Positions 28,455 through 57,526 of a DNA stretch of 64,000 nucleotides are shown one piece after another. Below the pieces are notes generated by a model. That model was not told where the DNA came from, made no database searches, and worked only from the letters and a program-made list of their open reading frames with translations. This DNA comes from an uncultured virus (IMG/VR IMGVR_UViG_3300042276_000285). Lineage: Duplodnaviria > Heunggongvirae > Uroviricota > Caudoviricetes. Both the position numbers and the translations under genes were made by a program. The stretch lies in the IMG/VR virus record IMGVR_UViG_3300042276_000285; one strand, written 5' to 3'. The first letter of the stretch is position 1. The number at the start of each line of letters is the position of its first letter.

Positions 28455-28509
28455 CCTTTTTTACAACTGTTTTGTCTGCGTTGTATCTTTGCTGTAAAAT
28501 ATTTCAGGG

Positions 28510-30888: not shown

Positions 30889-30944
30889 TGCTTTTTTAAG
30901 AGAATAAAAAAGACAATATATCTTTGTAAACAAAAAAATACAAC

Positions 30945-32051: not shown

Positions 32052-32063
32052 AATGAATGAAAC

Positions 32064-33491: not shown

Positions 33492-33508
33492 AAAAAGGAG
33501 GTATTAAG

Positions 33509-33997: not shown

Positions 33998-34053
33998 CAG
34001 GTTGGGGCTTTTGCCCCTTCCTTTTTTCAACACAGAGAAAAATACAAAACAAC

Positions 34054-35097: not shown

Positions 35098-35125
35098 TTT
35101 TGTAGGTTTCTTCTCGTGTTGTATC

Positions 35126-35157
35126 GGGGGTGGCTGTTGAGTCGCCCCCTTTTTTTA
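35126..35157 (+). terminator. Rho-independent terminator upstream of array 2 promoter
   Basis: GGGGGTGGCT-gttg-AGTCGCCCCC followed by a T run. Confidence 0.75.
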
Positions 35158-35259
35158 TTCACAAATACTTGCATCGATGCGACTTATTTTCTATCTTTGC
35201 TAACGTTTCCGCCATGAGTAGTGGCGGTTTTAGAACTACTCACTTTAAATAACAAAATA

Positions 35260-35592
35260 ATGAGCGAATTTGAAAACGGATATTATTGGGTAAGTTATAA
35301 AGGTATGAAACCTGTAATTATGGAAAAAGATAATTATGGATGGAATGCTATGGGTATAGAAACCGAACCAGATTTAACAGATTATAAAGTATTAGGAAAG
35401 GTAAGCGAATGGGATTTGAGCGTACCACAAGCAAATGAATTATCACCGCATGTTAGCGGTAGTGCTTTTCCTAAGTACGATTGCGATGATTGTAAACACT
35501 ACCCCTGCCAAACAGAACCAGATAGCCACGGAAGCCGACAAAGAAAAATAGAATACGGTAAATGCGGAGACCATAGCGAAAGATGTGATTAG
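35260..35592 (+). CDS. Hypothetical fusion protein, Cys-rich C-terminus
   Basis: Junction peptide NELSPHVSGSA. Confidence 0.65.
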   Translation: MSEFENGYYWVSYKGMKPVIMEKDNYGWNAMGIETEPDLTDYKVLGKVSEWDLSVPQANELSPHVSGSAFPKYDCDDCKHYPCQTEPDSHGSRQRKIEYGKCGDHSERCD

Positions 35593-35598
35593 CATTAC

Positions 35599-35965
35599 CG
35601 CTAACGGTAAATGCAAGGGTATGTGCTGCCATGAAAGTTGCACAGACAATGATACGAGTAAACGACAAAACAAATAAAAGCGATGGAAAAAATAACTTAT
35701 TACACAAACAGCGGTGAATTTATAGCTGACAAATTACTGCCATGTCCTTTTTGTGGGGGTGAGCCTGAATTTATAACAATCGGAAACTACCACACAAAGA
35801 GTAGAAAAGCACAAATTGAATGTACCAAATGCCATGTAAGGCGAACAACTGGCACAATTAGAAATGACCTTGAATGGTGTGGACGTAAAGCAATTGAGGC
35901 TTGGAACGCGCGTTGGCAAGACAGTTCGGACGAGAGCGCAGCATTACCTTTGCATGATGTTAGCG
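35599..35965 (-). repeat. attC-like site sharing its shell with 6776-7057
   Basis: GCTAACGGTAAATGCAAGGGTATGTGCTGCC and GGACGAGAGCGCAGCATTACCTTTGCATG identical to the reverse complement of site 12. Confidence 0.9.
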
Positions 35966-36120
35966 CGTCGTTGCTTAAAAAATACATGACTTTGATAATT
36001 GATTGTGAAGGAGTGGACTTCCTTTATAAAATAGATACAATGCAAGATACACAGGAATGGACAGACGAAGAGGTTGAAGCTTTAACTGAACTTTCAGAAT
36101 CAATTAGCAATGCGCGCTAA
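35683..36120 (+). CDS. Lar-like (restriction alleviation) Zn-binding domain fused to a cassette body
   Basis: LLPCPFCGGE ... IECTKC ... AIEAWN. Confidence 0.7.
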   Translation: MEKITYYTNSGEFIADKLLPCPFCGGEPEFITIGNYHTKSRKAQIECTKCHVRRTTGTIRNDLEWCGRKAIEAWNARWQDSSDESAALPLHDVSASLLKKYMTLIIDCEGVDFLYKIDTMQDTQEWTDEEVEALTELSESISNAR

Positions 36121-36233
36121 CGGTTTGTACAAGTTGCGTTTTAAAACTGACGATTATTTGAAATACTAAAGTAATATTTTTAAAAGCGAAGCGGGGGCGT
36201 TTTCTCCTGCATAAATTTAATACATACAGCAAA

Positions 36234-36929
36234 ATGAAAAATTTAAAAGAAATGACAGAACAAGAAATTCTTGCGTTAACAGATGAAGAAATTACGCTTA
36301 GAATTAAGCTGAAAAAGGCAGAAGAAGGAATTAAATTAGTTCCAAAACCCAAAATGCCTTCCTATTTTGATATTGAAGAACCTGACAAAACAGTTTATTA
36401 TTGCGAGTTATTCGGTGATGATTTGTGTTTTGAAAGCATGGAAGAACTTACTAAATTGATTCAATTGATTTCTGGTAGCGAAACAAAATGTTCGGTTACC
36501 TATGACTACAATAAAGCCGGGTCTGAATATTCTTATATCACGTCAAAAATGAAAACACGTGGTTACAGCTATAAAGAATGGAGTGTGACTGGTTCGAAAC
36601 GTGTTTATTCAATCGAAAAATACAATGCTTGTGTTGATATGATTGCTCAGAACAAAAAAATGAAAGAGCAATATGAAAAAGAATTAAAAGAATATGAAGC
36701 TGCTATTTCGGAAGCCAAATGGATTGAAGATGAAATAAACGACCGTGTTCGCGAAGTTCGTGACAAATATTGGAAACTAAATGAATATTGCCGTAAATTT
36801 AAACTTGATTATTTGCCACTTGCAGACGAAAATGAAGACGTGGCAATGAAGTTTATGGATAAAGCATATTCGTTAACTGACGAACAAAAGGAATACGTTC
36901 TATCAAATTATGCAGGATTAAATTCCTAA
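36234..36929 (+). CDS. Hypothetical protein inside attC loop
   Basis: 231-aa ORF. Confidence 0.8.
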   Translation: MKNLKEMTEQEILALTDEEITLRIKLKKAEEGIKLVPKPKMPSYFDIEEPDKTVYYCELFGDDLCFESMEELTKLIQLISGSETKCSVTYDYNKAGSEYSYITSKMKTRGYSYKEWSVTGSKRVYSIEKYNACVDMIAQNKKMKEQYEKELKEYEAAISEAKWIEDEINDRVREVRDKYWKLNEYCRKFKLDYLPLADENEDVAMKFMDKAYSLTDEQKEYVLSNYAGLNS

Positions 36930-37168
36930 ACAGCTTTGCTGTATGCGGGAGGGGCTTTTAAAAATATGGTTAATTAAGCTCCACCGTTGATTAGATGCAC
37001 GGCAAAAATGCAATTTGTACTTTGTTATAAACTGTAGCCGTGCTTCTTCTAATCTTTTTAAACATACAGTTTTCACGGCTATTGTTTATAACGGTTGGTG
37101 TTTGTTTAGTTTGCCAACCGGATTGCAGAGAATTTTAATTGAAATACTAAAATATCAAATTACGCGCG

Positions 37169-37444
37169 ATGGAAGATTACGAACAAGATTATGACGAATG
37201 TTGCCCGAAGTGCGAACATTCACCGACACACTACCGCAATTGCAGCGAATTGCACTGCGATGAAGGTTATATAGATGAAAATGACCTTGACCCGATAGAT
37301 TTCATGGAAGGTGAAAGTTACATTATGTGCAATGAGTGTTACGGCACTGGTATTGAAGAATGGTGTCCAAAATGTGGTTACGATATTAGCGCACATAAGT
37401 ACGTTGTGCGGCTGCGAGAAGCTAAATTGAAAAGCGCAAATTAA
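37169..37444 (+). CDS. Cys-rich zinc-finger protein inside attC loop
   Basis: CPKC, CNECYGTG, CPKCG. Confidence 0.7.
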   Translation: MEDYEQDYDECCPKCEHSPTHYRNCSELHCDEGYIDENDLDPIDFMEGESYIMCNECYGTGIEEWCPKCGYDISAHKYVVRLREAKLKSAN

Positions 37445-37671
37445 ATAAACACATTGTTACCATGCCGAAGGGTACGTTTTGCGCTTACGTACCTTTCGGA
37501 TTGCTTCAAATTTTCAAGCGCAAAATGCATGGTAACGGGAACTTGTATGAAGCGGTGGCGATTAGGAGCTACTACCTATCGAACCGCACAAAATTAACTT
37601 AGTAGCTAAGTGGTTAAAAATAAGCACATAACGCCACTGATTTATACAAAATGTTATGCTGCGTTTTTGTT

Positions 37672-37947
37672 ATGATTTACAAATTAACTTTTGATGACGG
37701 CAGAATTGATTGGTGTACCGCCAAAAACCAATTACACCTATTAAAATCTTACGATAAAGATTATGATTTGCCATTGCAGGAAATTGAAAATATCGAAGAA
37801 ATAGAGGAAGAACAAGCCAAAACAATAATGGTTACAAATACTGAATTTGACGAAGATAACCCAGATGATATGCCGGAACAATTATCAATTTGGGAATTGG
37901 CAGTTGGAGAAGATTTTGAAATAATCGCTTCTACGGAGTTCGTTTAA
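37672..37947 (+). CDS. Acidic hypothetical cassette protein
   Basis: Fills body 37653-37959. Confidence 0.7.
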   Translation: MIYKLTFDDGRIDWCTAKNQLHLLKSYDKDYDLPLQEIENIEEIEEEQAKTIMVTNTEFDEDNPDDMPEQLSIWELAVGEDFEIIASTEFV

Positions 37948-38073
37948 ATGCAGCATAACGGTCGAGTGTATGAGTAGTGTGGCTTTGCACATACTTTCTT
38001 TCGACTTACAGATAAACTTATTTAGCCACATTACTTATACACTTTGTTATAGGTATGTAAAAATTTATGGATT

Positions 38074-38247
38074 ATGAAAGATAAAGAAATTAAAGACTTA
38101 CAAAAGTTTAGGGCAAAGGAAGAGTTGAAGATAAAACTACTTCAAGTTATTAACAAATATAAATCAAAGGAAGAACCACATATAATGTTATCAAATGATG
38201 ATATTGTAAATGTTTTATCTTCAATGATAGTTAGAAGAACGGAATAA
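38074..38247 (+). CDS. Small hypothetical cassette protein (57 aa, MKDKEIKD...)
   Basis: Translated by hand; fills body 38046-38265. Confidence 0.55.
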   Translation: MKDKEIKDLQKFRAKEELKIKLLQVINKYKSKEEPHIMLSNDDIVNVLSSMIVRRTE

Positions 38248-38342
38248 ATTTTTATTACCTATAACGGAAAGCATAAGTTTTGACCGCAGTTGAATAACCG
38301 AAAAAATCTAATACGAGTATAAACAGTTTAAAATTACGTGTG

Positions 38343-38684
38343 ATGGGAAAAGAATTACATATTATAAGACCAAAAGGAACAACTATTGGAGAATATGAAG
38401 TAACAAAAATTGGATTTTTGATGCCGAATGGAGAGGAAGTTATCATTCCTTTTAATAAAGGCACGAAGATAAAAGACATACTGAGCGAAGGCAATCCGTT
38501 GCTCGAAGTTGGTAGCGGTTTAAATTTATGCTGTGTTAGCAGCCGTTTATCCTTAGATGAAATAGAAAAAGAATCAAAAGAGTGGGCTGAAAGTAGGAGT
38601 GTTGGCAACAAAGAGCAGGACGATGAATGTGCTTATGACTTTAAATGTGGAATGATAACCGCAAGAAATAAACTTAGCAAATAA
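38343..38684 (+). CDS. Hypothetical fusion protein
   Basis: Junction peptide GLNLCCVSSR. Confidence 0.65.
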   Translation: MGKELHIIRPKGTTIGEYEVTKIGFLMPNGEEVIIPFNKGTKIKDILSEGNPLLEVGSGLNLCCVSSRLSLDEIEKESKEWAESRSVGNKEQDDECAYDFKCGMITARNKLSK

Positions 38685-38735
38685 AATGGCTGCTAACGGT
38701 AACTTGTAAGTTGTCGGTTTTTATTAACGGATTAA

Positions 38736-39119
38736 ATGAACGAAATTATGGAAAAAGTATTTAGAGTTGCAGACATTAGAAAATTTGAGCAACAAGTTAC
38801 AAAAGGAGATATAAGCTATTCAAGAATGGTTGAATTAATGAACGAAATGGCGCATACGCACTATGTAGTTAATAAAAACTGCAATTTACAAAATGTTAAC
38901 CGCCGTTATTCCCCAGAAGAAGGAAAAGTACGAGGCGGATCAACAATTAAATGGGAAACTTTTACGGACGAATCATATCACAATATGGTTGCTGTTAGAC
39001 CAGTTGGAGACACCGACTTTAATTCACCGAGGTTATTTCATTTCATATTCCCAGAAAATGCCGAAAAATTTAAACTACTTGCTGAAATGGCTTTTGTTGC
39101 TAAGCCTAATGGCGGTTAA
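38736..39119 (+). CDS. Hypothetical fusion protein
   Basis: Junction peptide NCNLQNVNRR; stop in core. Confidence 0.65.
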   Translation: MNEIMEKVFRVADIRKFEQQVTKGDISYSRMVELMNEMAHTHYVVNKNCNLQNVNRRYSPEEGKVRGGSTIKWETFTDESYHNMVAVRPVGDTDFNSPRLFHFIFPENAEKFKLLAEMAFVAKPNGG

Positions 39120-39204
39120 CGGTAAGCATAAGAATAGTGGCGACAATAACGCACGAAAGTTAATAAAAGAGATACAGTAATATTTTATTTTTAGGGATGG
39201 TTTT

Positions 39205-39867
39205 ATGTTTTATTATTACGGAAGAAAAAAACAAATAGCCAAGTATTATCCTGCTCCAAACTGCGATACTATTATTGAGCCGTTTGCAGGTGCAGCATCT
39301 TACTCAATGTTTGGCGACAATTGGGAAAAGAATATAATTCTCATCGAAAAGGATGAGAAAGTTGCCAATATTTGGGATTGGCTTATTAATAGCGCAACTG
39401 TCGAGGATATTAAGAATTTACCTGACTTAAAAGTTGGTGAAAGAAGTTCTGATTTTTTACATATTGTACATGCTGCAACAAAAATGGCTTTCCACTACAA
39501 AACGATTAAGGTAACACCTGTACTGGAACGAAATTGGGAAATCAGCCGCAGAATATTTGCTGAAAACCTTCACAAAATAAAACATTGGCAGATTATTAAT
39601 GACGATTATTCAAGTGCGCCAAATATTGAAGCTACTTGGTTTATCGACCCCCCGTACAAAGGCAATGCAGGAATGGGGTACAGGCATAGCAGTAGATTGT
39701 TGGACTATGATAAACTCGCCGATTGGACATTGAAACGCAAAGGCGAAATTATTTTTTGTGAGGGTAAAAACGGTGATTATTTACCATTTAAACCCTTATT
39801 AAATTTGAAAGGTGTGGCTGGGAAAGTAAGTAAAGAAGTTATTTTTTACAAATCCAAATTGCTTTGA
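39205..39867 (+). CDS. Dam/D12-like DNA adenine methyltransferase
   Basis: YYGRK, IEPFAGAA, FIDPPY. Confidence 0.85.
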   Translation: MFYYYGRKKQIAKYYPAPNCDTIIEPFAGAASYSMFGDNWEKNIILIEKDEKVANIWDWLINSATVEDIKNLPDLKVGERSSDFLHIVHAATKMAFHYKTIKVTPVLERNWEISRRIFAENLHKIKHWQIINDDYSSAPNIEATWFIDPPYKGNAGMGYRHSSRLLDYDKLADWTLKRKGEIIFCEGKNGDYLPFKPLLNLKGVAGKVSKEVIFYKSKLL

Positions 39868-40117
39868 AAAAGCAAAAGTGCGAGGGCAAAATAAAATATG
39901 GAATTAGCGCAGAATGTTGATTAAATGTACCACACCAAGCCATTATTTTTATGCATTGTTATGCACCGTGCTTTTTGTAACTTTGAAACACGGACGTAAC
40001 AACAAAGATGCATTTATGAATAATAGCATGGTGCATAACGGTTGCAACAAGTGGCGTTGCTGCCAGACAGTTGATTAAATGAACGGACGTTAAAAAAATA
40101 ATTTTAGGGAGGGTTTT

Positions 40118-40834
40118 ATGATTAATTTTTTCTTTGGTAACTACAAAATATTTACGCGCAATATCCCTGATTTATATTACGATTGGACTATTGCCGATAT
40201 TCCCTACGGAATTGACGTTGCAAATATGGCTTATCTGAAAGAAGTTAATACAACAGTTAAACAGAAAAATGGAAATAGACTTAATCCAAACCGAAACAAA
40301 AAAGCATATAAACAAAAGGATTGGGACAAACAAACACCTTCTCAAGATTACTTTGACGAGATTAGGCGCATAAGTAAGAATCAGATTGTTTTCGGTGTTA
40401 ACTATGTTGATTGGAAAGGACTTGGAAAAGGCAGAATTAAATGGGATAAAGGTGTTCCTGATGGTGTTAGTTTTAACCGTTATGAATATGCCTATTGTAG
40501 TTCGATTGATTATGAACACGAAATACAACTTCTTTGGGCTGGAATGTGCCAAGCTAAAAGCCTGAGCGAACCAATGACACAGCAAGGCAATAAGAAACTC
40601 AATGAAAAACGTATTCATCCATGCCACAAGCCTATTTTGCTTTATAAAAGACTATTGCTTGATTTCGTGGAACCTGGGATGAAAATAATTGACACGCATG
40701 GAGGAGGAATGAGTTTAGCAATTGCTGCAGATGAATTTGGCGCAGATGCAGATATATGTGAGATTGACGGTGAATACTTTAATTCTGGAACTAACAGATA
40801 TAAATTGCACAAACGCCAACTCAAACTGTTTTGA
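40118..40834 (+). CDS. DNA methyltransferase, N6-A/N4-C family
   Basis: ADIPYGI, RIHPCHKP, IIDTHGGG, CEIDGEYF. Confidence 0.85.
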   Translation: MINFFFGNYKIFTRNIPDLYYDWTIADIPYGIDVANMAYLKEVNTTVKQKNGNRLNPNRNKKAYKQKDWDKQTPSQDYFDEIRRISKNQIVFGVNYVDWKGLGKGRIKWDKGVPDGVSFNRYEYAYCSSIDYEHEIQLLWAGMCQAKSLSEPMTQQGNKKLNEKRIHPCHKPILLYKRLLLDFVEPGMKIIDTHGGGMSLAIAADEFGADADICEIDGEYFNSGTNRYKLHKRQLKLF

Positions 40835-41137
40835 AAAAACAGTACGTGGGTCGGCAAATTATTTTTTGATTTTATGCAGAAACTTAGCTATGAAATACCG
40901 AAGCAATGCCATTTGTTGCGTGTTAGCGTGCCAACGGGAACGGTTTTGCTAAACTGGTTTTCATGTTTGCTTATAAGTTTCAAGCAAAACTGCACGCTAA
41001 CGGCTATTGTAAGAATAGTAGCCGTAAAATACGCAGAAAAGTTGATTGAAATACAATAGTTTAATAACCGATAATAGCTCTAAAAAGACCACATAGCAGG
41101 CTATTATTTTTACAAATTGTTATGTGGCGTTATTATT

Positions 41138-41302
41138 ATGGACAAATGGGAAATATACGGAACTTTCAATAACTGGAAGAATCGAAACTATCACGAGCTT
41201 AGAAAAGAGTACGAAGGTGGGAAAAATTGCGGGGATTCAATGAGAAGTACTGACGATTGTAGTTTTGATGATTTTTGTATGGGTAAGTGGCAGCGACTTT
41301 AA
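41138..41302 (+). CDS. Small hypothetical cassette protein
   Basis: Fills body 41119-41313. Confidence 0.55.
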   Translation: MDKWEIYGTFNNWKNRNYHELRKEYEGGKNCGDSMRSTDDCSFDDFCMGKWQRL

Positions 41303-41482
41303 TGCCACATAACGGTTCGTATATGAAAAGTAGCGGACTACGAAGCGCAAAACTATCAAACTATGAGAAACGATAATACGAGTACGAACCTTGCAAACGG
41401 CACTAAAACCGCTATTTTTTATATATGGTGTTATGTGTAGTGCTTTATTAATCAGATTGTTAAACTTTAAAAATTAAATAAA

Positions 41483-41959
41483 ATGGGATTAGATGTAAGA
41501 ACTTACGGAAATATTAAACTTGCTGAAAACGAAGATGATTACGCATTTACAGCATTTGTAATAGATGATAATTGGAAGCATAAAATTAAAAACTTAGAAG
41601 ATGGTAAATGTTATACTGGTGATAGCATTTTCAGAGGTGTTTCTTATCCTTATTCAGCACATAGCAGATTTAGAGAAATGTTGGTAAAATTAATTGATAG
41701 AACTGATTTACTTGAAGCTGATGGAAAAATAAAATGGAGCGAACTGCCTTCTGATATTCCATTTAATGCGTTAATTGACTTTGCAGATAACGAAGGTTGT
41801 TTGGACTGGGAAATTTCAGAAACTATCTATTCTGACTTTAAAAAATACAATGAAAAGGCAAAAGCTGAATTAGATGAATACAATTATTCAAGATACGAAA
41901 CTTGGATGAAAACATTTGAAGCAGCTAAAAATAATCAAGGCGTGGTGGTGTTTTCTTAA
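41483..41959 (+). CDS. Phage hypothetical protein (MGLD... family)
   Basis: MGLDV start, PFNALIDFADNEG. Confidence 0.8.
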   Translation: MGLDVRTYGNIKLAENEDDYAFTAFVIDDNWKHKIKNLEDGKCYTGDSIFRGVSYPYSAHSRFREMLVKLIDRTDLLEADGKIKWSELPSDIPFNALIDFADNEGCLDWEISETIYSDFKKYNEKAKAELDEYNYSRYETWMKTFEAAKNNQGVVVFS

Positions 41960-41965
41960 CATTAC

Positions 41966-42003
41966 ACATAACTATTATTAAAACCAATTAGTTTAACCAA
42001 TTA
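41966..42003 (-). other. attI-like proximal site of array 2
   Basis: 41969-41991 is the exact reverse complement of 1-23; internal direct repeat AACCAATTA at 41982 and 41995. Confidence 0.7.
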
Positions 42004-42108
42004 ATTTTCAATCAGATAAAAATGGATTTGACAGAACTGAAACAAAACTATGTCACTGTTTTGACTGCGCATATCCATTTTTGTATCTTTGTAGAAAAAT
42101 AAATAAAC

Positions 42109-42846
42109 ATGCCAACAGGATTTAGGACAGCCAACCAGATAATAAACGAGTCGCTTGCCTCCGTACGTGACTTCGATCGAAAGTACTACAACGAAGCTGC
42201 TATGTACTTTGACAGGGGGTATCGTGAGTTTAAGTTGTTCAACGATTCTTCTTTTAAGGAATCGTGGGAAACAATTACTGCAATAAATACTGTAAACTAT
42301 CCCAAAGACGCTATCAGGTTGTTGTCTGTCGGAGTGGTATCAGATGGAGAGATGTTTACGTTCACGCGATCTGACGACATGGTTGCGCCAATTACAAGCC
42401 CAATTGATTCTTTTTTAGATAGTGATAGAGGAGAAGACGACACCTTGCGGCGTGTGCCACAAATTGGCTATGGGGCTAAATCTGTAAACGTAGAATACTA
42501 CTACTTTGACGACAGGAAAAAGCGCAGGATTGTGCTTGGCAGAGCTGCTGTTGACGTTTCTCGTTTTGCAGCCAGAGGAGAGGTGTTAGTGAGGTATGTT
42601 GCAAACGAGGTGGATAACTTGGATGCGCTGCATATACCTGACGATGCTTCCAATCTTTTGATTGCTTATATAGAATATAAACTTGTTGAATCGCGTCCAG
42701 ACAAGTACGATCGTGGCTACATGGCAGAAAAGAAACAAAACTACAGAGAAGAAGTAAGGCGGTACGAAGCATTGGAACTGCCGTCGTTGCAAGACATGAT
42801 AGACGTTATTTATGAAACATCGGGACAAACGCCGCGTAGAGTATGA
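42109..42846 (+). CDS. Putative tail tubular / ring protein
   Basis: Precedes stabilisation protein; size and position. Confidence 0.6.
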   Translation: MPTGFRTANQIINESLASVRDFDRKYYNEAAMYFDRGYREFKLFNDSSFKESWETITAINTVNYPKDAIRLLSVGVVSDGEMFTFTRSDDMVAPITSPIDSFLDSDRGEDDTLRRVPQIGYGAKSVNVEYYYFDDRKKRRIVLGRAAVDVSRFAARGEVLVRYVANEVDNLDALHIPDDASNLLIAYIEYKLVESRPDKYDRGYMAEKKQNYREEVRRYEALELPSLQDMIDVIYETSGQTPRRV

Positions 42847-45800
42847 AGACACTTTTGCCAATGAATGGAGGCATCAACAGAGATGCAAATCCGCTATATA
42901 TAGCTTCTGACAGAGGCGACGTGTATGACAGGAGAAACTGCCGTGTGTATTCTTTTGATGGTAATAGAACAGGAATAAACGTTTCTATAAAGGGTATGAC
43001 AGAGGTGTCGGCAAGTCTTCCGAGTGGCACGAATATAATTATAGGATACGTACAGGACAAAGAAAGAGATTGTGGAATCTTCTTCAACTACAATTCAAAC
43101 GGAAACGACGGTATTTACATATTTACGGGTTCGCTTGTGATAAACTTGGGAGTGCCAAATGGTGTTCTTGGGTTTAGCCCATTTTATTTTGTAAGGGCAT
43201 CAGTGATAGGAGACTATTGCGTGTTTACAGACAACCTGAATCCACCGCGTAAGATACAGTTTGTGAACGACGACGGAGATTTTCAAATCAATTTACTTTC
43301 AGGGAAAAGTGCAGATGACATACAGTTGATAAATAGACCACCCTCTTCTGCACCAACGTTTGTGGTGGGAAGTGATTCATCAAAGAAAAGTAACAGACTC
43401 ATAGGAAAATCATTTCAGTTTGCATATTATTATATATATTCCGACAATACATATTCAGTATTGTCTCCGTATTCTGATTTGCTTGTAGCACCGTCTATGT
43501 TTACTGGTGACAAAGATTCTTACGTGGATCAGTCGCTTGGAAACCATGCGGTAGTTTCTTATAATGTTGGTTACGACAGTGTTTCAGAAGTTGTACTTGT
43601 GGCAAGAGAGGGAAATAGTGGGAATTGGTTTGTTGTAGACAAACATGAAAAAGATTCAGAAGACGAATTGTCTGTAATTTCAACCGTTTTTTATAATGAT
43701 GTGGCAAGAGTTGGTGTGCAACATCAGGAAGTTGATTCTTTTTTTAGCGACGTTCCGTTATTGGCAAAATCTGTTAGCATTGTTCAAAACAGAGTTGCAC
43801 TGGCAAATGTTTTAAAGGGATACGATAAAACAAATGTTGATTTTAGTGTATCTGTTGCTTACGAAGACTACGATTTAAATGGTCTTTTTACGGATATGAC
43901 AAACAGCGACGAAATTAGTTCTACTAATTATATTATAAAATGGACAATTCCTACCGCTTTAATTAAGGGACAGATTATAAAAGCAACATTTAGTGGACGG
44001 TTTAAGAATGAAAGTTCTTATGATTTTGACTTTTATTATTCGTTTTCGGTTGTTGTTGAAAGCGGTGACGTTGTGTCTGATATTATAAATAAATTTGTTG
44101 CAGACATTACCTCGAAAGGAAACGGAATTATAACCACTATAAGAAAAGGTACTTTTATTACGGCATCTCCATATCAAAGTGGAAGCGACGTTGGAATACA
44201 GTTTTTAGGGGTCGCTGGAAGTGGTTCAGAGGAATATTCATATAGTGGCACATTTACGCAAGAAACAATTGTTTCGGGTGTAAATACATTCAAGGCGGGC
44301 AGTTATTATGAAGTTGGAGTTGTTTTGTGTGATGAACACTCAAGAACATCTGGTGTATTGAGCAAAAAAAAGATTTATATTCCAAGTGCAGGAGAAAGAG
44401 ATTTTGCAGATGCTTACAAAAGGGCTTATTTAAACTTTACCATAAACAATACAACAGCGCCATCATGGGCAAAGTATTTAAGATTTGTTGTTACTGAGTC
44501 TGTAAGTTTTTCTGGCGTGTTTAATACTATTGTTGGTGCTTCCTCTGTTGAGGCAGTAAATGATGGTAAAGATGTATTTGCTATATCGTTGTCTGAGTCC
44601 TTAGATTATGCTTTTACAGACGGAGACTACGTTTTAATTGAAAGTATTAGCGGTTCTTCTATAACAACGATACAAAAAACGTGTATAGGAACAAGAACCA
44701 TAGTATACGATTCTGCCTCTAATGAATATTCTGGATTTTTCTTACTTATTCCAAACGAAGGAGAATCTATTTTAGATTTTGCAGGAAATAAGCTTACGAT
44801 ATACAGACCAAAATCAGACATAGAAAATAATGTTTTCTTTGAGGACGTTAATACTTATTCTGTAACGAATGGAGTTATACAAATAACAAGCGGTACCATT
44901 GATAATTCTGATGCATGGATAATAAACAGACAGTTTAGCGTCACTTTTGATATAGGACTCCCAAATGTATTACAAGGAATTAGATTAAACACAGGAACGT
45001 CAGGAACGGCTCAGTTTTCTTATGGAAGCATAACTGGTGTATTTACTTTTTATGACGATTATGAGACAACTATAAAGAGATTTGTTGCTCAATATGGGAA
45101 TGATTTTTTAACAAACGGATTAGTTGTAGCAGCAGATGGTAGTGACTTATTGGTCTATGAGCCAGCAGGCGCGTCAACATCTCCAACAATAACTAATTTA
45201 ACGGGAGATTTAGACGGAGACACTCTGTTGATAAATGAAGCAAGAACAGGTGTTTTGTATGCCACCGTAGAGGATTTCTATATAGACATTTATACCGGAT
45301 TAAGGGCTTATGCTCGTGGTAGGAGTATTGTAGAATTATCAGATTTATCTCAAATAAGATTACAGGATTTTGTGTGGAGTTTTAATTATTTAGACAATAC
45401 CAAGATAAACGGAATGTCAACGTTTAATCCACTGAACAGGAAGCAGTTAGACGAAAAGAACGGACAGATAAATGCCATCTCAGTAGTTGGCGACGTGGTA
45501 AAAGTAATTCAGGACAACAAGGAAACGTCGCTGTACATTGGCAAGGCACGTTTTGTAGACGGGGACGGAACCATCGGGCTTGTAAAATCAAACGACTTTA
45601 TTGGAGACGCCTATCCGAGTGTGTCAGACTACGGTTCACGCTATCCGAACAGCGTAAGCACCAACAATCGTGACGTATACTATTTTGACGGGGACAGAGG
45701 GCAGGTGATACGATCATCGGCAAACGGACAGTTTCCTATTTCTGACTATGGAATGAAGTCAGAGTTTTTGCGGATAAAAAGAGATATGGACAATGCTCTG

Positions 45801-46427
45801 GGCGTAGACAGCAGAAGCGTGAAAATTATCTCTTTCTACGACGTAAGGAACGATGAGTATGTGATTACATTTGACATACGCGGAAACGTAGAGACGTGGG
45901 CTTTCAAAGAAGGGGCAGATCAGTGGGTGGCAAGATACGACTTTGAAGACGCTTCCGGCAATGCACCGAGTCTGTATGGAAATGTAGGAGAACAGGCGTT
46001 GTCGTTTTTGAACGGAAGCGTGTGGCTGCATGAGCGTAGCACGTCGTACAATACCTTTTATGGCGATTTAAAACCACTTTCTGTCACAGGACTACTAAAT
46101 ATATATCCTGAACAGGAAAAGTGTCTCAGAGCTGTCAAAATTGACTCAAACAGGGCTATGGACACAACGATTACTTCTCCGGTGGCAAACACGCGTCCTG
46201 TTGGGCAAAAGAGTTTGTTGTATGCAGAGAGCTACTCGTTGCGGGAAGGAAGTTACACGTCAGCCGTGTATGGCAACATTTTAGGGGCAGGTGGAGTAGA
46301 GAATTTGTCGTTGTTGCATTCCGGCGACGACATGGTTGGGAAGTACCTGCAACTGACGTTTTCAGACGAAAGTGCAAGTGAAATGCAACTGCGCTTGGTT
46401 ACAGCCTCTTTTACAATAAATCGATAA
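42843..46427 (+). CDS. Tail stabilisation (muzzle, P22 gp10-like) protein
   Basis: GGINRD N-terminus, FTDNLNPPRKI, TFKAGSYYEVGVV, YYFDGDRG, PISDYGM motifs typical of crAss-like stabilisation proteins. Confidence 0.75.
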   Translation: MKTLLPMNGGINRDANPLYIASDRGDVYDRRNCRVYSFDGNRTGINVSIKGMTEVSASLPSGTNIIIGYVQDKERDCGIFFNYNSNGNDGIYIFTGSLVINLGVPNGVLGFSPFYFVRASVIGDYCVFTDNLNPPRKIQFVNDDGDFQINLLSGKSADDIQLINRPPSSAPTFVVGSDSSKKSNRLIGKSFQFAYYYIYSDNTYSVLSPYSDLLVAPSMFTGDKDSYVDQSLGNHAVVSYNVGYDSVSEVVLVAREGNSGNWFVVDKHEKDSEDELSVISTVFYNDVARVGVQHQEVDSFFSDVPLLAKSVSIVQNRVALANVLKGYDKTNVDFSVSVAYEDYDLNGLFTDMTNSDEISSTNYIIKWTIPTALIKGQIIKATFSGRFKNESSYDFDFYYSFSVVVESGDVVSDIINKFVADITSKGNGIITTIRKGTFITASPYQSGSDVGIQFLGVAGSGSEEYSYSGTFTQETIVSGVNTFKAGSYYEVGVVLCDEHSRTSGVLSKKKIYIPSAGERDFADAYKRAYLNFTINNTTAPSWAKYLRFVVTESVSFSGVFNTIVGASSVEAVNDGKDVFAISLSESLDYAFTDGDYVLIESISGSSITTIQKTCIGTRTIVYDSASNEYSGFFLLIPNEGESILDFAGNKLTIYRPKSDIENNVFFEDVNTYSVTNGVIQITSGTIDNSDAWIINRQFSVTFDIGLPNVLQGIRLNTGTSGTAQFSYGSITGVFTFYDDYETTIKRFVAQYGNDFLTNGLVVAADGSDLLVYEPAGASTSPTITNLTGDLDGDTLLINEARTGVLYATVEDFYIDIYTGLRAYARGRSIVELSDLSQIRLQDFVWSFNYLDNTKINGMSTFNPLNRKQLDEKNGQINAISVVGDVVKVIQDNKETSLYIGKARFVDGDGTIGLVKSNDFIGDAYPSVSDYGSRYPNSVSTNNRDVYYFDGDRGQVIRSSANGQFPISDYGMKSEFLRIKRDMDNALGVDSRSVKIISFYDVRNDEYVITFDIRGNVETWAFKEGADQWVARYDFEDASGNAPSLYGNVGEQALSFLNGSVWLHERSTSYNTFYGDLKPLSVTGLLNIYPEQEKCLRAVKIDSNRAMDTTITSPVANTRPVGQKSLLYAESYSLREGSYTSAVYGNILGAGGVENLSLLHSGDDMVGKYLQLTFSDESASEMQLRLVTASFTINR

Positions 46428-46760
46428 TATGTTTTACAACATGTAAAAATATTTGTGGATTTGTTGTTAGTTTTGTGTGATGATTGTTGTAATTGATATT
46501 ATATGTAAAGCCATATAAATTGGTATAATGTTTAAGTATTATATTCACAAGCATACAATGAATGAAATGGAATTAAGAAAAGAAGAAATGTTTTAGAATT
46601 TTGTTATCAAGTTGTTGTTTGATTTGCAGCTAAGTAATTCCAGTGTAACTTTTGATGTTGTAGAAGACGATGATTTGGTTGAAAGGGGTTAGACTTTGTG
46701 TTTAGCCCTTTTTTATTTGTACGCAGCCATATTTGTATCTTTGCTGTAAAATATAGAAAT

Positions 46761-47483
46761 ATGCCAATACCATTATTAGTACCACTGATTGCGGCGGGTG
46801 TATCGGCTGCTGGGCAAATAGGCATGGGTGTAGCCGATTCTGTTAAAGGGAACAGGACGTTGAAACAGGCACAGAGCTTTTACGAACAGAACAAATTCGA
46901 CATACCCGAATTTGCACAGGAGGCATTGAGTGTTGCGGAGAGACAGGGGTCTTCGATGCGTCTTCCGGGTGAGGATATAGCAAGGTCTCGGTTGGAAGAA
47001 ACTGTGTCAGGTGGCATAGGTGCGGCACAACAGGCAGCTACAAGTTCAAGTGACGTTTTGGCGTTGTTGGGGACATTTATGGGACAAAAAGCACAGTCAG
47101 AACAAAACTTAATAGAAGCAGGGGCGCAAAGATACGATGCCAATCAGCTGCAACTTCAAAACGCGCTGGGAATGATGTCGGAATTGGAGCAGAAGCGTTG
47201 GCAGTACAACGTGCTTTATCCATATCAACAGCAGTTGGCACAGGCAGAGGCTTACTCTACAAGAGGGCGACAGGAGCTAAGTGGCGGTTTAAGCGCACTT
47301 GGAAGCATGGCTGGCGGTATGGCTCAGGTAGGTTCAGCACAAGGTCAATACAACAATTGGATGGCAAATATGGGGTTTACAATGGGAGATTTAAACCCAC
47401 AGAACAGAATGCAGCCAATGGGGACAATTGGCACGCCGAGTTTGTCGTCTGGAGTTAGTACAAATCAATTAATGCCGATGTAA
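46761..47483 (+). CDS. Putative ejection / pilot protein
   Basis: Hydrophobic G/A-rich N-terminus, Q-rich helical body. Confidence 0.6.
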   Translation: MPIPLLVPLIAAGVSAAGQIGMGVADSVKGNRTLKQAQSFYEQNKFDIPEFAQEALSVAERQGSSMRLPGEDIARSRLEETVSGGIGAAQQAATSSSDVLALLGTFMGQKAQSEQNLIEAGAQRYDANQLQLQNALGMMSELEQKRWQYNVLYPYQQQLAQAEAYSTRGRQELSGGLSALGSMAGGMAQVGSAQGQYNNWMANMGFTMGDLNPQNRMQPMGTIGTPSLSSGVSTNQLMPM

Positions 47484-47485
47484 TT

Positions 47486-49108
47486 ATGGCAGATGGATTT
47501 TTAACAGGAGTAAGCAGGCAACCATTGGACTTGGTCTCAGGTGCGCAAAGTTTCATGCGTTCTGCGGTTGAGTCGCGTTTGGCAGAAATAGAGGCAAACA
47601 AAATAGAAGTAAGCGAAAACTACAAAAATTCGTTGAAGGCTATGTCTCTGTCTACCGTAGAGGGACTATCAGAAAATTTACGCAGAAAGTATCAAGGCAG
47701 AATAGAAGAATACCGCAAAGACGTTATGAACAAATTTCGTTCTTCTGGTGGCAAATTGAGCATGCAACAGGAGAAAGAAATTCAGGATGGCTATGTAGAC
47801 ATACAGAGAAAGATGGCCGGTGATGTTTCTATATTGAACGAAATACAAAAAGTTCAGGACATGGCATTGAGCAATCCTACGATGTACAACATAGAAGCAC
47901 TTAGCACTGACTTGGGGCATGTTCAGACGGCGTTGGACAAAGGGGAATATACAGGCAGACCGTCCGTGTTGCTGATGAAACATCAAGTTCCTGTTAGCGA
48001 AGGCGACTTTATTGCCAAACACTACGGAAACGAAATGAAGGCGTTAGAGGACTTTGTTACGGGCGACTTCACAGGAAACATCTTCAAAACTACAGAGTTG
48101 ACAGGGTTAGACCCGAACACATACGAGCTAACACGCCGCGCAAGCGACCTGCGAGACAGAATATTAGAAAACCCGTGGATGAAATCCAAATATACCAATC
48201 CAGACGGTTCTATAAATCCAGAGGCGTATGCTCGTCAGAAACAAGTGGCAGAAGACAACATCACCAGAATAGTTGAAGACATGAAGTCTTACAGTCCGCG
48301 TGCGGGTAGTGGCAAAGACAAAGAATTGACATACCTGACGCCAACCACTGTTGACGTAAACGGTGAGGACGTAAGCGTGTATAACGTTCCGGCTGGTATA
48401 CCACAAACGAAAATGACCATTACGGTTGGTGGAAAGCTGAAAAATGCAAACACGGGGCGTATGGAAGAAGTAAAAGGAAATACGCTCGACGACTTTATTG
48501 TCAAGGGGGTATCACCAGAAACAAGAGAAGTGTTTGTTCAGGTAGAAGGCGGTGGTGTTTTGGAAAGAGACGGTCAGCCGTTGTTAGCCAGAGAAACAGA
48601 AATTGGTTCTTTAGAGGGAAGGTCAGACAGCGACAAGATGCAAGACGGACAGACGCCAAATCAAATTAAAGAAAATGCATTTAGCATACTCGTTGGTCAG
48701 TCGAGCAAGCCAAGTGAAAGAGATTGGACGCGTGTTGTAGACGCGAAAGTGACCGAGAACAACGACGGTTCATATACGCTTAGCGGCACACTTGAAAGGC
48801 ATGGAACAAAAGCACTTGGAGTTGGCTTAGGTGGCGTTAGAAAAGAAGAAGATTTATCCAAAGAAGGCGAGAACCTGAAAAAGTCAGAACAGGTAAGCAT
48901 AACCTACCAACCAATAACAGGAGGCAAAGAACCAAAATCTTATGCCTTGCCAATGGATGAATACAAGGATGTGTTGCAGCGCATCGTTGGCAAATTTGGC
49001 CTTGTGTACGACGGTAAGAGATACACATGGGACGACGTGTTTAACAGGCCTGAATTGTTTCAGAAGTCGAAGAAAACAAAAGAAGACGATCCGTTAGGAA
49101 TATTATAA
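47486..49108 (+). CDS. Putative ejection (internal virion) protein
   Basis: Position between pilot-like and giant genes; ends DDPLGIL. Confidence 0.55.
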   Translation: MADGFLTGVSRQPLDLVSGAQSFMRSAVESRLAEIEANKIEVSENYKNSLKAMSLSTVEGLSENLRRKYQGRIEEYRKDVMNKFRSSGGKLSMQQEKEIQDGYVDIQRKMAGDVSILNEIQKVQDMALSNPTMYNIEALSTDLGHVQTALDKGEYTGRPSVLLMKHQVPVSEGDFIAKHYGNEMKALEDFVTGDFTGNIFKTTELTGLDPNTYELTRRASDLRDRILENPWMKSKYTNPDGSINPEAYARQKQVAEDNITRIVEDMKSYSPRAGSGKDKELTYLTPTTVDVNGEDVSVYNVPAGIPQTKMTITVGGKLKNANTGRMEEVKGNTLDDFIVKGVSPETREVFVQVEGGGVLERDGQPLLARETEIGSLEGRSDSDKMQDGQTPNQIKENAFSILVGQSSKPSERDWTRVVDAKVTENNDGSYTLSGTLERHGTKALGVGLGGVRKEEDLSKEGENLKKSEQVSITYQPITGGKEPKSYALPMDEYKDVLQRIVGKFGLVYDGKRYTWDDVFNRPELFQKSKKTKEDDPLGIL

Positions 49109-49109
49109 T

Positions 49110-56960: not shown

Positions 56961-57028
56961 GAAGCCATTTTTATGGCTTTTTCTATGCCTGTTTTTTTCG
57001 TGTGTATCTTTGTAAAGAAGTTAAAATC

Positions 57029-57520: not shown

Positions 57521-57526
57521 AATAAT

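What the first reader, a model, noticed from the sequence alone, without database searches (positions are those of the whole stretch)
41966..42003. Both arrays end in the same 23-bp attI-like site
Seen: TAACTATTATTAAAACCAATTAG (41969-41991) is the exact reverse complement of nt 1-23. In both cases it abuts the first GTT core, lacks a hairpin arm, and identity stops just inside the first cassette. AACCAATTA is directly repeated (41982, 41995). Established: attI is a non-palindromic site ending in G|TT, often with accessory direct repeats. Inference: this is the dedicated insertion site, so the newest cassettes would be the MTase 21..809 and ORF 41483..41959.
Basis: partly seen in the sequence, partly recalled or inferred. 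Interest (0 to 1): 0.9.

Follow-up and report, generated by a model that had tools for sequence, protein, structure and literature searches.

The report
Phage integron-like cassette docking site
The 23-base match is real and belongs to a 98-base inverted repeat that marks the docking site where this phage's two libraries of swappable genes, several of them DNA methyltransferases, gain and lose cassettes, probably through a Xer-type recombinase rather than a true integron integrase.

Summary
Observation confirmed. Window 1-23 is the exact reverse complement of 41969-41991 (none expected by chance).

It is not an artefact. Two related viral contigs hold both copies internally. There the repeat runs 96-98 nt. 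It holds a hairpin-less site, TAAC|TATTATTAAAACCAATTAG..., and the first 14 codons of a 271-aa Xer-type tyrosine recombinase gene that lies just left of window nt 1.

Both arrays consist of cassettes bounded by A-T-[GT]-N5-YAAC|GG sites with hairpins: about 19 on the minus strand at 20-10354 and 12 on the plus strand at 35201-41972.

Relatives that are 99% identical in the backbone differ in whole cassettes next to both copies. The junctions fall in the four bases YAAC. One cassette sits in opposite arrays in two phages.

The same layout, array then YAAC|TAnnATATAT then recombinase, recurs in distant viral contigs (22 of 22 examined for the site). It also occurs in cultured Polaribacter Freya phages, where six isolates show five different cassettes against one site.

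The recombinase lacks the IntI-specific insertion, and cassette genes face the opposite way to those of integrons. So it works like attI but is not an integron.

My five literature searches found no description. Earlier notes of this scan report the same kind of system on other genomes.

The parts
1..23 (-). Left copy of the attI-like site, cut off by the contig start. In relatives it continues leftwards for about 75 nt more into the recombinase gene.
   Evidence: exact reverse complement of 41969-41991. (L001 and L002 continue into the 271-aa recombinase ORF). (G001 ends at window nt 13).
20..10354 (-). Left cassette array. It has 20 YAAC sites on the minus strand, at 10351, 9534, 9058, 8632, 8213, 7765, 7336, 7054, 6566, 6209, 5832, 5583, 4929, 4429, 3476, 3172, 2314, 1949, 873 and 23, giving about 19 cassettes. 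Genes point towards the site at nt 1-23.
   Evidence: site list. (motif A-T-[GT]-N5-YAAC-G-[GT]: 14 on the minus strand and 0 on the plus strand in 1-10400). (clear DNA methyltransferases at 24-809, 3489-4247 and 4930-5442; partial Pfam match at 2406-3077).
24..873 (-). Cassette of the left array nearest the attI-like site: N6/N4 DNA methyltransferase (ORF 21..809). Its start codon lies in the hairpin loop. Its own R' is GTTGGCGGTAGTG and its R'' is CATTACCGCTAAC.
   Evidence: PF01555, 7.9e-35. (own ends complementary at 11 of 13). (G004 carries a further 457-nt cassette between this one and the site).
35201..41972 (+). Right cassette array. It has 13 YAAC sites on the plus strand, at 35201, 35602, 36118, 37089, 37533, 37956, 38262, 38694, 39117, 40036, 40998, 41310 and 41969, giving 12 cassettes. 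It sits between the head genes and the downstream virion genes.
   Evidence: 10 motif hits on the plus strand, 0 on the minus strand in 35151-41999. (Lar-like protein at 35683-36117; methyltransferases at 39205-39864 and 40118-40831; terminase and portal at 26136-30885).
41314..41972 (+). Cassette of the right array nearest the attI-like site. It holds an attC-like hairpin (41310-41446) and ORF 41483..41959 (158 aa, no family hit). Its R' is GTTATGTGTAGTG and its R'' is CATTACACATAAC.
   Evidence: own ends complementary at 12 of 13. (fold). (no Pfam or PHROG hit).
41969..42021 (+). Right copy of the attI-like site. It holds the crossover core TAAC (41969-41972), then TATTATTAAA, then two direct repeats AACCAATTA (41982-41990 and 41995-42003). 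It ends 49 nt after the core at the ATG at 42022. It has no hairpin.
   Evidence: (contigs of runs X6 and X7 join 40997 to 41969 with 4 shared letters).
41967..42064 (+). Full repeat unit shared with the left copy: 98 nt at 100% in G004, 96 nt in G003's left copy, and 99% in G003's right copy.
   Evidence: L001 9928-10025, L002 9928-10023. (L123 at 98.98%).
42022..42064 (+). Duplicated first 14 codons (MDLTELKQNYVTVL) of the recombinase gene. Here the sequence then diverges into a 26-codon dead-end ORF (42022-42102). No full recombinase gene lies in the window.

Best explanation
The 23-mer is the visible end of the docking site (the counterpart of an integron attI) of a phage-borne gene-cassette system that works like an integron.

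The phage has two mirror-image arrays. Each cassette, read in the direction of its gene, is [L''-loop-L'-R' (GTTRnnnnnCAT)]-ORF-[R'' (ATGnnnnnYAAC)]. When such a cassette is circularised, its R'' and R' pair and form a hairpin with an R box, a small bulge and an L box.

A 271-aa Xer-type tyrosine recombinase is encoded immediately downstream of the left docking site. I infer that it exchanges strands within the four bases YAAC, between a folded cassette site and the unfolded site YAAC|TATTATTAAAACCAATTAG... New cassettes therefore enter, or leave, next to that site.

The right array ends in a 98-nt copy of the site plus the first 14 codons of the recombinase gene. The one enzyme, acting in trans, could therefore serve both arrays.

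Recognisable cargo is mostly DNA methyltransferases plus a Lar-like protein. This points to a stock of anti-restriction genes, although most cassette ORFs match no family.

Shown: the sites, the junctions, the cassette differences and the linkage to the recombinase gene. Inferred: the catalysis, the strand that folds, the direction of events (gain or loss) and the function of the cargo.
For: (1) The repeat is real and longer than 23 nt. L001 9928-10025 is the reverse complement of window 42064-41967 at 100%, and L002 matches likewise. Both copies lie within G003 and G004.

(2) The recombinase ORF L001 9155..9970 starts inside the repeat. It matches Pfam Phage_integrase at 3.2e-19 and Phage_int_SAM_4. 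Candidate catalytic residues R134, K159, H218, R221, H243 and Y252 are invariant in 19 family members.

(3) Junctions. Conserved sequence stops at TAAC in all 4 aligned copies. G004 has an extra 457-nt cassette bounded by GTTA on both sides, with ends complementary at 14 of 15.

(4) Against G003 the backbone is 97.9-99.6% identical over its long shared blocks. Window 1-7047 and 37539-41961, the parts nearest the two sites, are replaced. The breakpoints lie at ACCG|TTAGC and GGTAACGG|. The 257-nt cassette at window 5832..5576 sits at 99.6% identity in G003's other array.

(5) Contigs of independent wastewater runs join 40997 to 41969, skipping 971 nt with 4 shared letters (runs X6 and X7). They also have loose ends at sites 35606, 37538, 40036, 40998, 41965 and 41969.

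(6) The site motif occurs 14 times on the minus strand and 0 on the plus strand in 1-10400, and 10 times on the plus strand and 0 on the minus strand in 35151-41999. There are 5 hits in the other 46.7 kb. The total is 29, against a shuffle mean of 4.9 and maximum of 14.

(7) A cassette's own ends are complementary: 12 of 31 cassettes reach at least 11 of 13, against 0 of 31 with the neighbouring cassette's end (Wilcoxon p = 1e-4).

(8) Family-wide, in 39 viral loci the motif occurs 150 times upstream on the recombinase strand and 6 times on the other strand, with 14 and 3 downstream. 22 of 22 loci examined have a terminal YAAC|TAnnATATAT-type site 18-53 nt before the ATG.

(9) Cultured Freya_1, 5, 6, 8, 9 and 10 show five different cassettes against ...YAAC|ACCCCTATAAC, 50 nt before the integrase gene.

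(10) The attI-like site has no fold, whereas one attC-like site folds at z -4.0. The gene-sense strand folds better in 14 of 15 sites.
Against: No recombination was observed. Everything rests on comparison of sequences.

The window lacks the recombinase gene, so its left flank is inferred from relatives.

The recombinase is not an IntI.

In this lineage the core (TATTATTAAA) departs from the family consensus TAnnATATAT.

15 of 31 cassettes show no clear R' of their own (9 or fewer of 13).

One attC-like site folds only weakly (z -1.1; 25 of 200 shuffles fold as well).

Some breakpoints between relatives are not at YAAC: 38685, 38886 and 40299, and those beyond 11.4 kb.

The sense-strand folding bias fits an RNA hairpin as well as single-stranded DNA.

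The conserved site lies where a promoter of the recombinase gene could also lie.

In Bacteroidota genomes, most homologues of the recombinase have no array beside them.

The scan of metagenome contigs found no further relative with this 21-mer.
Confidence: 0.8

Rival explanations
1. The cassettes are shuffled by general homologous recombination between repeated intergenic hairpins, as proposed for the PeSL regulatory cassettes of T4-type phages (recalled, not read here). On this view the 23-mer is only the conserved flank, with no dedicated site-specific step.
For: The hairpins share conserved arms of 20-70 nt (families D1, D9 and pair I1). Some breakpoints between relatives are not at YAAC. 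In G003 a different ORF sits in a conserved cassette frame (40036-40113 and 40848-41001).
Against: The docking site and the cassette sites share only the four bases YAAC, yet junctions fall exactly there (and the 4 shared letters). Each cassette's two ends are complementary to each other and not to the neighbouring cassette's end. That pattern points to a circular intermediate cut at a fixed position. The arrays are tightly linked to one recombinase family and one strand.
Confidence: 0.08
2. The repeat is a regulatory element, such as the promoter, operator or leader of the recombinase gene, that was duplicated along with the first codons. It lies at the array ends only because the gene does.
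For: The site lies 36-53 nt upstream of the start codon in 21 of 22 loci. It is AT-rich with a TATAT core. The duplicated unit includes the ribosome-binding region and the ATG.
Against: The sigma-70-type scan places no site in 41966-42021, and the 5 sites in the region match the 5.1 expected. That scan does not cover Bacteroidota promoters. A purely regulatory role does not explain why different cassettes abut it at exactly YAAC in seven junctions here and five in Freya. The two roles can coexist, as in integrons.
Confidence: 0.05
3. The site is the phage's attP for lysogeny, or a site for inverting the 42-kb segment between the two inverted copies.
For: GenBank annotators call the Freya homologue 'integrase', and the authors suggest that the phage may be temperate (passages). 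Two inverted copies of a recombinase site are the classic layout of an invertible segment.
Against: All contigs that show a flank have the same orientation. The metagenome-contig scan turned up no sequence sharing more than the 21-mer that could serve as attB. Neither idea explains the arrays or the cassette differences. Neither is excluded as an additional activity.
Confidence: 0.05
4. The match is an assembly artefact, for example a chimeric or folded-back contig end.
For: The match starts exactly at nt 1 of the window. G001 also ends there, at nt 13.
Against: G003 holds both copies internally, and so does G004, although its second copy lies 104 nt from the contig end. Both have colinear flanks. 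Contigs of four further runs support the junctions. Contigs are expected to break at a 98-nt inverted repeat, or at a junction that varies within the population.
Confidence: 0.01

Closest known systems
Integrons (IntI, attI, attC cassette arrays; class 1 and sedentary chromosomal integrons)
   Same: An unfolded docking site lies next to a tyrosine recombinase gene. Cassette sites have R''-L''-loop-L'-R' anatomy with AAC...GTT cores and a small bulge between the boxes. The crossover falls in or next to AAC/GTT. The cassettes nearest the docking site differ most between relatives. The order array, docking site, recombinase gene, read along the strand that carries YAAC at the 5' side of the hairpin, matches cassettes, attI1, intI1 on the integron bottom strand (integron layout recalled).
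   Different: The recombinase is 271 aa and aligns colinearly with XerA. It lacks the roughly 48-residue IntI-specific stretch: profile positions 178-209 face IntI4 residues 180-259. It scores far below the IntI model cut-offs. Cassette ORFs face the opposite way, with the hairpin upstream of or overlapping the 5' end of the gene, so no Pc-type promoter is implied. There are two inverted arrays with a duplicated docking site. The system is carried by a phage, and its recognisable cargo is methyltransferases and a Lar-like protein.
Phage CALINs (clusters of attC sites lacking an integrase) of Qi et al. 2023, PMC9892861, including Polaribacter phage P12002L with two methyltransferases
   Same: These are attC-type sites flanking methyltransferase genes in virulent phages of Flavobacteriia. 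Seen alone, the window holds no integrase gene and would look like a CALIN.
   Different: That paper (abstract, passages and section 3.4 read) reports no phage recombinase or attI for these clusters. It interprets the sites as substrates of bacterial IntI1. Here a dedicated phage recombinase family and a conserved docking site are linked to the arrays. I did not examine P12002L itself.
Xer/dif recombination and its use by CTX-type phages, where a folded single-stranded hairpin is recombined by XerC/D (recalled)
   Same: The recombinase is of Xer type: best solved relative is XerA 4a8e at 177 bits over its full length. The proposed reaction is between a folded hairpin and a double-stranded site.
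   Different: The enzyme is phage-encoded and not a host Xer. It serves arrays of gene cassettes, not integration of a whole genome at dif.
PeSL (promoter-early stem-loop) mobile regulatory cassettes of T4-type phages (recalled, not read here)
   Same: Small accessory phage genes are flanked by repeated stem-loops in hypervariable regions, and differ between close relatives.
   Different: No dedicated recombinase or docking site is described for PeSL. Here the junctions are fixed to four bases and linked to a recombinase gene.

Membership tests
Integron | Integrase of the IntI family, with the IntI-specific additional domain in the catalytic half | tested here: not met
   NCBIfam TIGR02249 scores 67 bits against a cut-off of 265 and matches only profile positions 15-177. 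PRK15417 scores 29 bits against a cut-off of 435. The profile of 19 family members aligns to IntI4 (2a3v) in two pieces, 8-177 and 210-266. That leaves IntI4 residues 180-259 facing only 32 profile positions. XerA aligns end to end.
Integron | attC sites: imperfect inverted repeats R''-L''...L'-R' with conserved AAC/GTT, foldable as a single strand | tested here: met
   33 sites are listed. The own ends of 12 of 31 cassettes are complementary at 11 or more of 13. One site folds at z -4.0 with a 4-nt bulge between the boxes. IntegronFinder's attC model was not available, so the published detection criterion is untested.
Integron | attI: a non-palindromic site next to the integrase gene at which cassettes are inserted | tested here: met
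   The site has no fold. It lies 49 nt before the recombinase ATG in relatives. Six different cassettes abut it in four genomes, and G004 holds one more cassette there. Insertion itself was not assayed.
Integron | Cassette ORFs lie upstream of their attC and are read from a platform promoter (Pc) away from attI | tested here: not met
   All cassette ORFs point towards the docking site, and the hairpin lies at their 5' end. In several cassettes the start codon lies in the hairpin loop.
Integron | Crossover at G|TT of the core | tested here: inconclusive
   Junctions are confined to the shared YAAC/GTTR tetranucleotide (and 4 shared letters). The exact phosphate cannot be read from sequence.
Xer-type simple tyrosine recombinases | Core-binding and catalytic domains only, colinear with Xer proteins, with catalytic R-K-H-R-H-Y | tested here: met
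   Pfam PF00589 and PF13495. Best NCBIfam match is XerA_Arch at 105 bits, below its cut-off of 220. 4a8e scores 177 bits over profile positions 4-262. R134, K159, H218, R221, H243 and Y252 are invariant in 19 sequences. It falls below every equivalog cut-off, so it is a separate family within this type.
CALIN (cluster of attC sites lacking an integrase) | Two or more attC sites called by IntegronFinder, with no IntI nearby | not testable with these tools
   IntegronFinder and HattCI are not available. The window has the sites and no recombinase gene, but relatives show the gene just beyond nt 1.

The most novel reading that the evidence does not exclude
This is an independently evolved, virus-borne counterpart of the integron. 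A Xer-type recombinase without the IntI insertion recombines folded cassette sites with an unfolded docking site. It is used widely by phages of Bacteroidota to trade cassettes, among them anti-restriction genes. In this phage the platform is doubled into two mirror-image arrays around the strand-switch point at about 21 kb. If that point is the replication origin, the better-folding gene-sense strand would be the lagging-strand template on both sides. That part is inference, and it is confounded with the direction of transcription.
Probability: 0.6. Interest if true: 0.9.

Novelty: new variant of a known kind. Interest (0 to 1): 0.85.

Why it matters
Integrons are regarded as a bacterial invention tied to one enzyme family, IntI. 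This window shows the same logic of docking site, folded cassette sites and ordered arrays, built on a different recombinase, inside a virus, and stocked with DNA methyltransferases and a Lar-like protein.

If the mechanism holds, three things follow. Phages would have their own cassette system for anti-defence genes, mirroring the bacterial integron stores of defence genes. The step from Xer to an integron-like enzyme would have happened at least twice, or the IntI insertion would not be needed for recombining hairpins. And the many unannotated cassettes would be a ready list of candidate anti-defence genes.

The system is directly testable, because cultured Polaribacter Freya phages carry it and already differ in their arrays.

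Tried and rejected
No whole genome is held for the window, so the left flank could not be read directly.

Two strict consensus patterns for the hairpin arms found only 1 and 4 sites. They were too narrow.

A generic AAC...GTT hairpin scan of the whole window gave 47 mostly spurious hits in coding regions and was dropped. The first pairing filter was also too strict.

The scan of metagenome contigs with the degenerate 21-mer gave 64 stretches. None shares more than the 21-mer with the site or the recombinase by blastn or tblastn, apart from two marginal matches of 44 and 51 nt. Two of the 7 viral-contig stretches (L121, L125) were chance matches as well.

G002 holds only one copy of the site and lacks the gene downstream of the right copy. 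Whether the doubled site is older than this lineage therefore stays open.

Recombinase homologues in Bacteroidota genomes (77 loci) mostly lack arrays: 51 plus-strand and 33 minus-strand motif hits in 640 kb, with 10 loci holding three or more hits. I did not follow these up.

The sigma-70-type promoter and terminator scan around the site gave nothing above chance. Rfam has no family for the hairpins.

Read laying used assembled contigs only, so rare forms such as circular cassettes could not be sought.

One script failed on an empty match and was corrected.

Structure prediction, complex prediction and the large protein searches were not used, because they would not have changed the verdict.

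Full report
THE OBSERVATION. Window 41969-41991 reads TAACTATTATTAAAACCAATTAG, and window 1-23 is its exact reverse complement. At up to three mismatches these are the only two matches, and 100 dinucleotide-preserving shuffles gave none. AACCAATTA stands at 41982-41990 and again at 41995-42003. The stretch 41955-42025 has no fold on either strand: -1.2 kcal/mol (z +1.2) and -3.1 kcal/mol (z +0.1). The GTT/AAC core is the first four bases of the 23-mer, not its neighbour. And a weaker likeness runs on to 44 nt at 84% (pair I4), because both terminal cassettes end in CATTACnnnTAAC.

WHAT THE WINDOW IS. Genes run leftwards from about 21.5 kb to nt 1 and rightwards from 21.6 kb to the window end. 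The rightward part holds a large terminase subunit (26136-28451), a portal protein (28510-30885) and virion proteins. These include a 2616-aa protein and a weak match to a crAss-type muzzle domain. So this is a tailed phage. The only nucleotide matches among GenBank phages were a 135-nt stretch in a Cellulophaga phage and a 58-nt stretch in an uncultured phage record. Public runs holding the sequence are mostly labelled wastewater metagenomes. No host is shown. A Bacteroidota host is my inference, drawn from the relatives and from TAnnTTTG-like motifs before late genes (family D13; the motif's meaning is recalled).

HOW FAR THE IDENTITY RUNS. No genome is held for the window, so I used relatives. 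The 23-mer occurs in two IMG/VR contigs, twice in one of them. In L001 (contig G004), positions 10478-20023 equal window 20-9565 at 100%. Positions 9928-10025 equal the reverse complement of window 42064-41967 at 100%. L002 (contig G003) shows the same over 96 nt. The repeat unit is therefore 96-98 nt. Both copies lie within G003 (10618 and 49100 of 59146) and within G004 (16967, and 59390 of 59516, about 100 nt from the contig end). G001, which is the reverse complement of window 13..61251 at 99.99-100% over the two 20-kb ends I compared, also stops inside the left copy. The contig end is thus a break at a true inverted repeat, or at a junction that varies in the population. It is not a chimera.

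WHAT LIES LEFT OF NT 1. In L001 and L002 the repeat contains the ATG and first 14 codons of a 271-aa ORF (L001 9155..9970, same strand as the array genes).
- The ORF has Pfam Phage_integrase (3.2e-19) and the SAM-like N-terminal domain.
- Its best NCBIfam match is archaeal XerA at 105 bits, against a cut-off of 220. The integron-integrase model scores 67 bits against 265 and covers only its first half.
- A profile of 19 family members aligns end to end with XerA structures (4a8e at 177 bits). It aligns to the integron integrase IntI4 in two pieces, leaving IntI4 residues 180-259 opposite only 32 profile positions. The IntI-specific insertion is therefore absent.
- R134, K159, H218, R221, H243 and Y252 are invariant.
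- The window's right copy (41967-42064) keeps only the 14 codons, then diverges into a 26-codon ORF. No recombinase gene lies in the window or in G001.

THE ARRAYS. Read in gene direction, the gaps between genes share A-T-[GT]-N5-[TC]AAC followed by GG.
- I listed 20 sites on the minus strand between 10351 and 23, and 13 on the plus strand between 35201 and 41969. The list was made by eye from the output.
- A regular expression for the motif hits 14 times on the minus strand and 0 on the plus strand in 1-10400. It hits 10 times on the plus strand and 0 on the minus strand in 35151-41999. There are 5 hits in the remaining 46.7 kb. The total is 29, against a mean of 4.9 and a maximum of 14 in 200 block shuffles.
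- Downstream of YAAC lies a hairpin arm (consensus about GGTTnGnGTATATGAnAAGTnGC). Its partner arm and GTTRnnnnnCAT follow 80-250 nt further on, often at 116-117 nt.
- Site 4330-4442 folds at -20.1 kcal/mol on the sense strand (z -4.0; 0 of 200 shuffles as good), with a 4-nt bulge between two stems. Site 41297-41446 folds less convincingly (z -1.1).
- The sense strand folds better than the antisense strand in 14 of 15 sites. The reason is G-T pairs at fixed places.
- Rfam has no family for these hairpins.

CASSETTES ARE UNITS WITH MATCHING ENDS. For each of 31 cassettes I asked how well the reverse complement of its own 3' end (13 nt ending in YAAC) matches the first 260 nt of the cassette. 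I compared this with the 3' end of the preceding cassette, which is the one that sits across the hairpin in the array.
- Own ends: mean 9.8 of 13, with 12 of 31 reaching 11 or more.
- Neighbour's ends: mean 8.3, with 0 of 31 reaching 11 or more.
- Other cassettes: mean 8.3.
- Wilcoxon, own greater than neighbour: p = 1e-4.
This is the expected pattern if cassettes pass through a circle whose two ends pair, and are opened at YAAC. Both terminal cassettes pass the test: 11 of 13 at nt 23 and 12 of 13 at 41969. The remaining 15 cassettes, at 9 or fewer of 13, show no clear partner.

COMPARATIVE EVIDENCE FOR THE DOCKING SITE.
(a) In an alignment of four copies (G004 left, G003 left, G002, window right), conservation begins exactly at TAAC and continues into the recombinase gene. 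Upstream of TAAC nothing aligns.
(b) G004 carries one more cassette between the site and the methyltransferase cassette. It is 457 nt from GTTA to GTTA, with a 119-aa ORF and ends complementary at 14 of 15.
(c) G003 shares the backbone with the window in long blocks at 97.9-99.6% identity (plus one 212-nt block at 90%). Window 1-7047 and 37539-41961, the parts nearest the two copies, are replaced by other cassettes, with breakpoints at ACCG|TTAGC and GGTAACGG|.
(d) The 257-nt cassette at window 5832..5576 (left array) sits at 99.6% identity in G003's right array. Part of a window right-array cassette (41001..40848, 94.8%) sits first in G003's left array. Cassettes therefore move between the arrays.
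(e) Contigs of four further runs (X5-X8, assembled contigs only) show a joint from 40997 to 41969. It skips exactly the two last cassettes (971 nt) with four letters shared, in X6 and X7. They also show loose ends at or within a few bases of sites 35602, 37533, 40036, 40998 and 41969, and at 42064 leading into recombinase codons. That joint may stem from a G003-like left array.
Against the reading, loose ends at 38685, 38886 and 40299, and the differences beyond 11.4 kb in the left arm, are not at YAAC.

THE SAME LAYOUT IN DISTANT PHAGES. A search of viral contigs with the recombinase returned 40 loci. Apart from the two query contigs, one is 66% identical and the rest are 27-38% identical.
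- In the 39 loci with enough upstream sequence (L010 was dropped), the site motif occurs 150 times upstream on the recombinase strand and 6 times on the other strand (178 kb). Downstream it occurs 14 and 3 times (214 kb). 29 of the 39 loci have two or more upstream hits.
- In the 22 loci for which I could fix the start codon, a script picked the best YAAC within 15-120 nt upstream. All 22 have one, and 21 of them lie 36-53 nt from the ATG. It is followed by TAnnATATAT (T19 A17 T17 A19 T16 of 22 at positions +6 to +10), in place of the GG of internal sites. The pick favours such sites by design.
- The window's lineage has TAAC|TATTATTAAA.

CULTURED PHAGES. tblastn found the family (27-29% identity) in 24 GenBank phage records. 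Among them are Polaribacter phages Freya_1 to Freya_10, Leef_1 and Cellulophaga phages Ingeline_1 to 8.
- The Freya records range from 43978 to 48920 nt.
- Freya_1 reads ...ttgtttaCAAC|ACCCCTATAAC..., 50 nt before the integrase ATG. Freya_10 has 4942 nt more, inserted exactly at that bar.
- Freya_5, 6, 8 and 9 end in ...ttgttacCAAC|...ttactacCAAC|...ttgttgcTAAC| and ...ttttacCAAC| against the same sequence. The ends of Freya_5 and Freya_9 are internal sites of Freya_10.
- That makes five different cassettes against one site in six isolates from one host.
- The paper describing these phages mentions the integrase only as a hint of a temperate lifestyle and does not contain the word 'cassette' (passages).

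CARGO. The cassettes hold:
- N6/N4 methyltransferases at 24-809, 3489-4247 and 40118-40831, and a partial match at 2406-3077;
- other DNA methyltransferases at 4930-5442 and 39205-39864;
- a Lar-like restriction-alleviation protein at 35683-36117.
The other cassette ORFs have either no family match or a match only to a family of unknown function. The anti-restriction role is inferred from the family names.

HOW IT MOST LIKELY WORKS (INFERENCE). A cassette excised as a circle folds one strand into a hairpin with an R box (its two ends), a bulge and an L box. The Xer-type recombinase pairs this hairpin with the unfolded docking site and exchanges strands within YAAC. This places the cassette between the last cassette and the site, just upstream of the recombinase gene. 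Along the strand that carries YAAC at the 5' side of the hairpin, the order array, site, recombinase gene equals cassettes, attI1, intI1 on the integron bottom strand (recalled). Only the cassette genes are turned round. Each cassette therefore brings its own 5' region, and in several the start codon lies in the hairpin loop. The right array has the site but no enzyme gene, so it would be served in trans. The two arrays flank the strand-switch point near 21 kb, where cumulative GC skew turns. If that point is the origin, the better-folding strand is the lagging-strand template in both arrays. This is confounded with transcription direction and is untested.

WHAT IS KNOWN. Qi et al. 2023 (PMC9892861; abstract, passages and section 3.4 read) reported clusters of attC sites without an integrase in virulent phages. 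One was a Polaribacter phage with two methyltransferases. They showed that bacterial IntI1 can use some of those sites, and described no phage recombinase or docking site. Five full-text searches and passages of a survey of tyrosine recombinases (PMC8138268) gave no description of a phage-encoded platform of this kind. Subscription journals are not covered by the library. Earlier notes of this scan describe the same kind of system on other genomes. These notes are unchecked AI notes and agree with what I found independently here.

VERDICT. The element works like an attI, but the system fails two defining features of integrons: the IntI enzyme and the cassette orientation. I therefore class it as a new variant of a known kind.

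Noticed in passing
window 14526-14592 (-): Rfam type-P3 twister ribozyme (RF03154), 41.8 bits against a gathering score of 39.9, in a gap between small genes of the leftward operon. GC-rich hairpin gaps at 14151-14223 and 14887-14976 look similar and were not tested.
   Followed up: no
window 6777-7066 (-) and 35590-35964 (+): Two cassettes, one in each array, share their hairpin arms (73 nt at 88% and 44 nt at 95%). They also share the peptide DESAALPLH(G/D)VS, which is encoded by the L'-R' half of the site. In several cassettes the start codon lies in the hairpin loop and the 3' arm is translated as a Gly/Ser-rich stretch.
   Followed up: partly
L211 (Cellulophaga phage phi19:3, NC_021789) record 14673-16394 (+): This is a short array of the same kind of sites. 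It ends in TAAC|AATGTTATATAAC and is followed by a 78-aa gene and a 418-aa tyrosine recombinase of a different size class. The window's site 40998-41135 matches this phage at 77.5% over 135 nt.
   Followed up: partly
G003 (L051) 27003-29063, opposite window 21015-21025: A 2-kb insertion in the relative, exactly at the divergent point between the leftward and rightward gene blocks.
   Followed up: no
window 40036-40113 and 40848-41001; L002 10020-10720: The same cassette frame (5' hairpin part and 3' end) holds an N6/N4 methyltransferase in the window and an unrelated ORF in G003. Gene replacement inside a cassette therefore also occurs, away from YAAC.
   Followed up: partly
L133, L148, L179, L181, L185, L203 (Bacteroidota genome contigs): A few bacterial or MAG contigs with a homologous recombinase also carry runs of the site motif. 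In two of them the run lies on the opposite strand downstream of the gene. Most of the 77 loci have none.
   Followed up: no
window 28481-28502, 42081-42102, 46733-46754 (+): TTGTATCTTTG... motifs repeat before late genes, and two copies are identical. They are likely late promoters. The one at 42081 lies just outside the 98-nt repeat.
   Followed up: no
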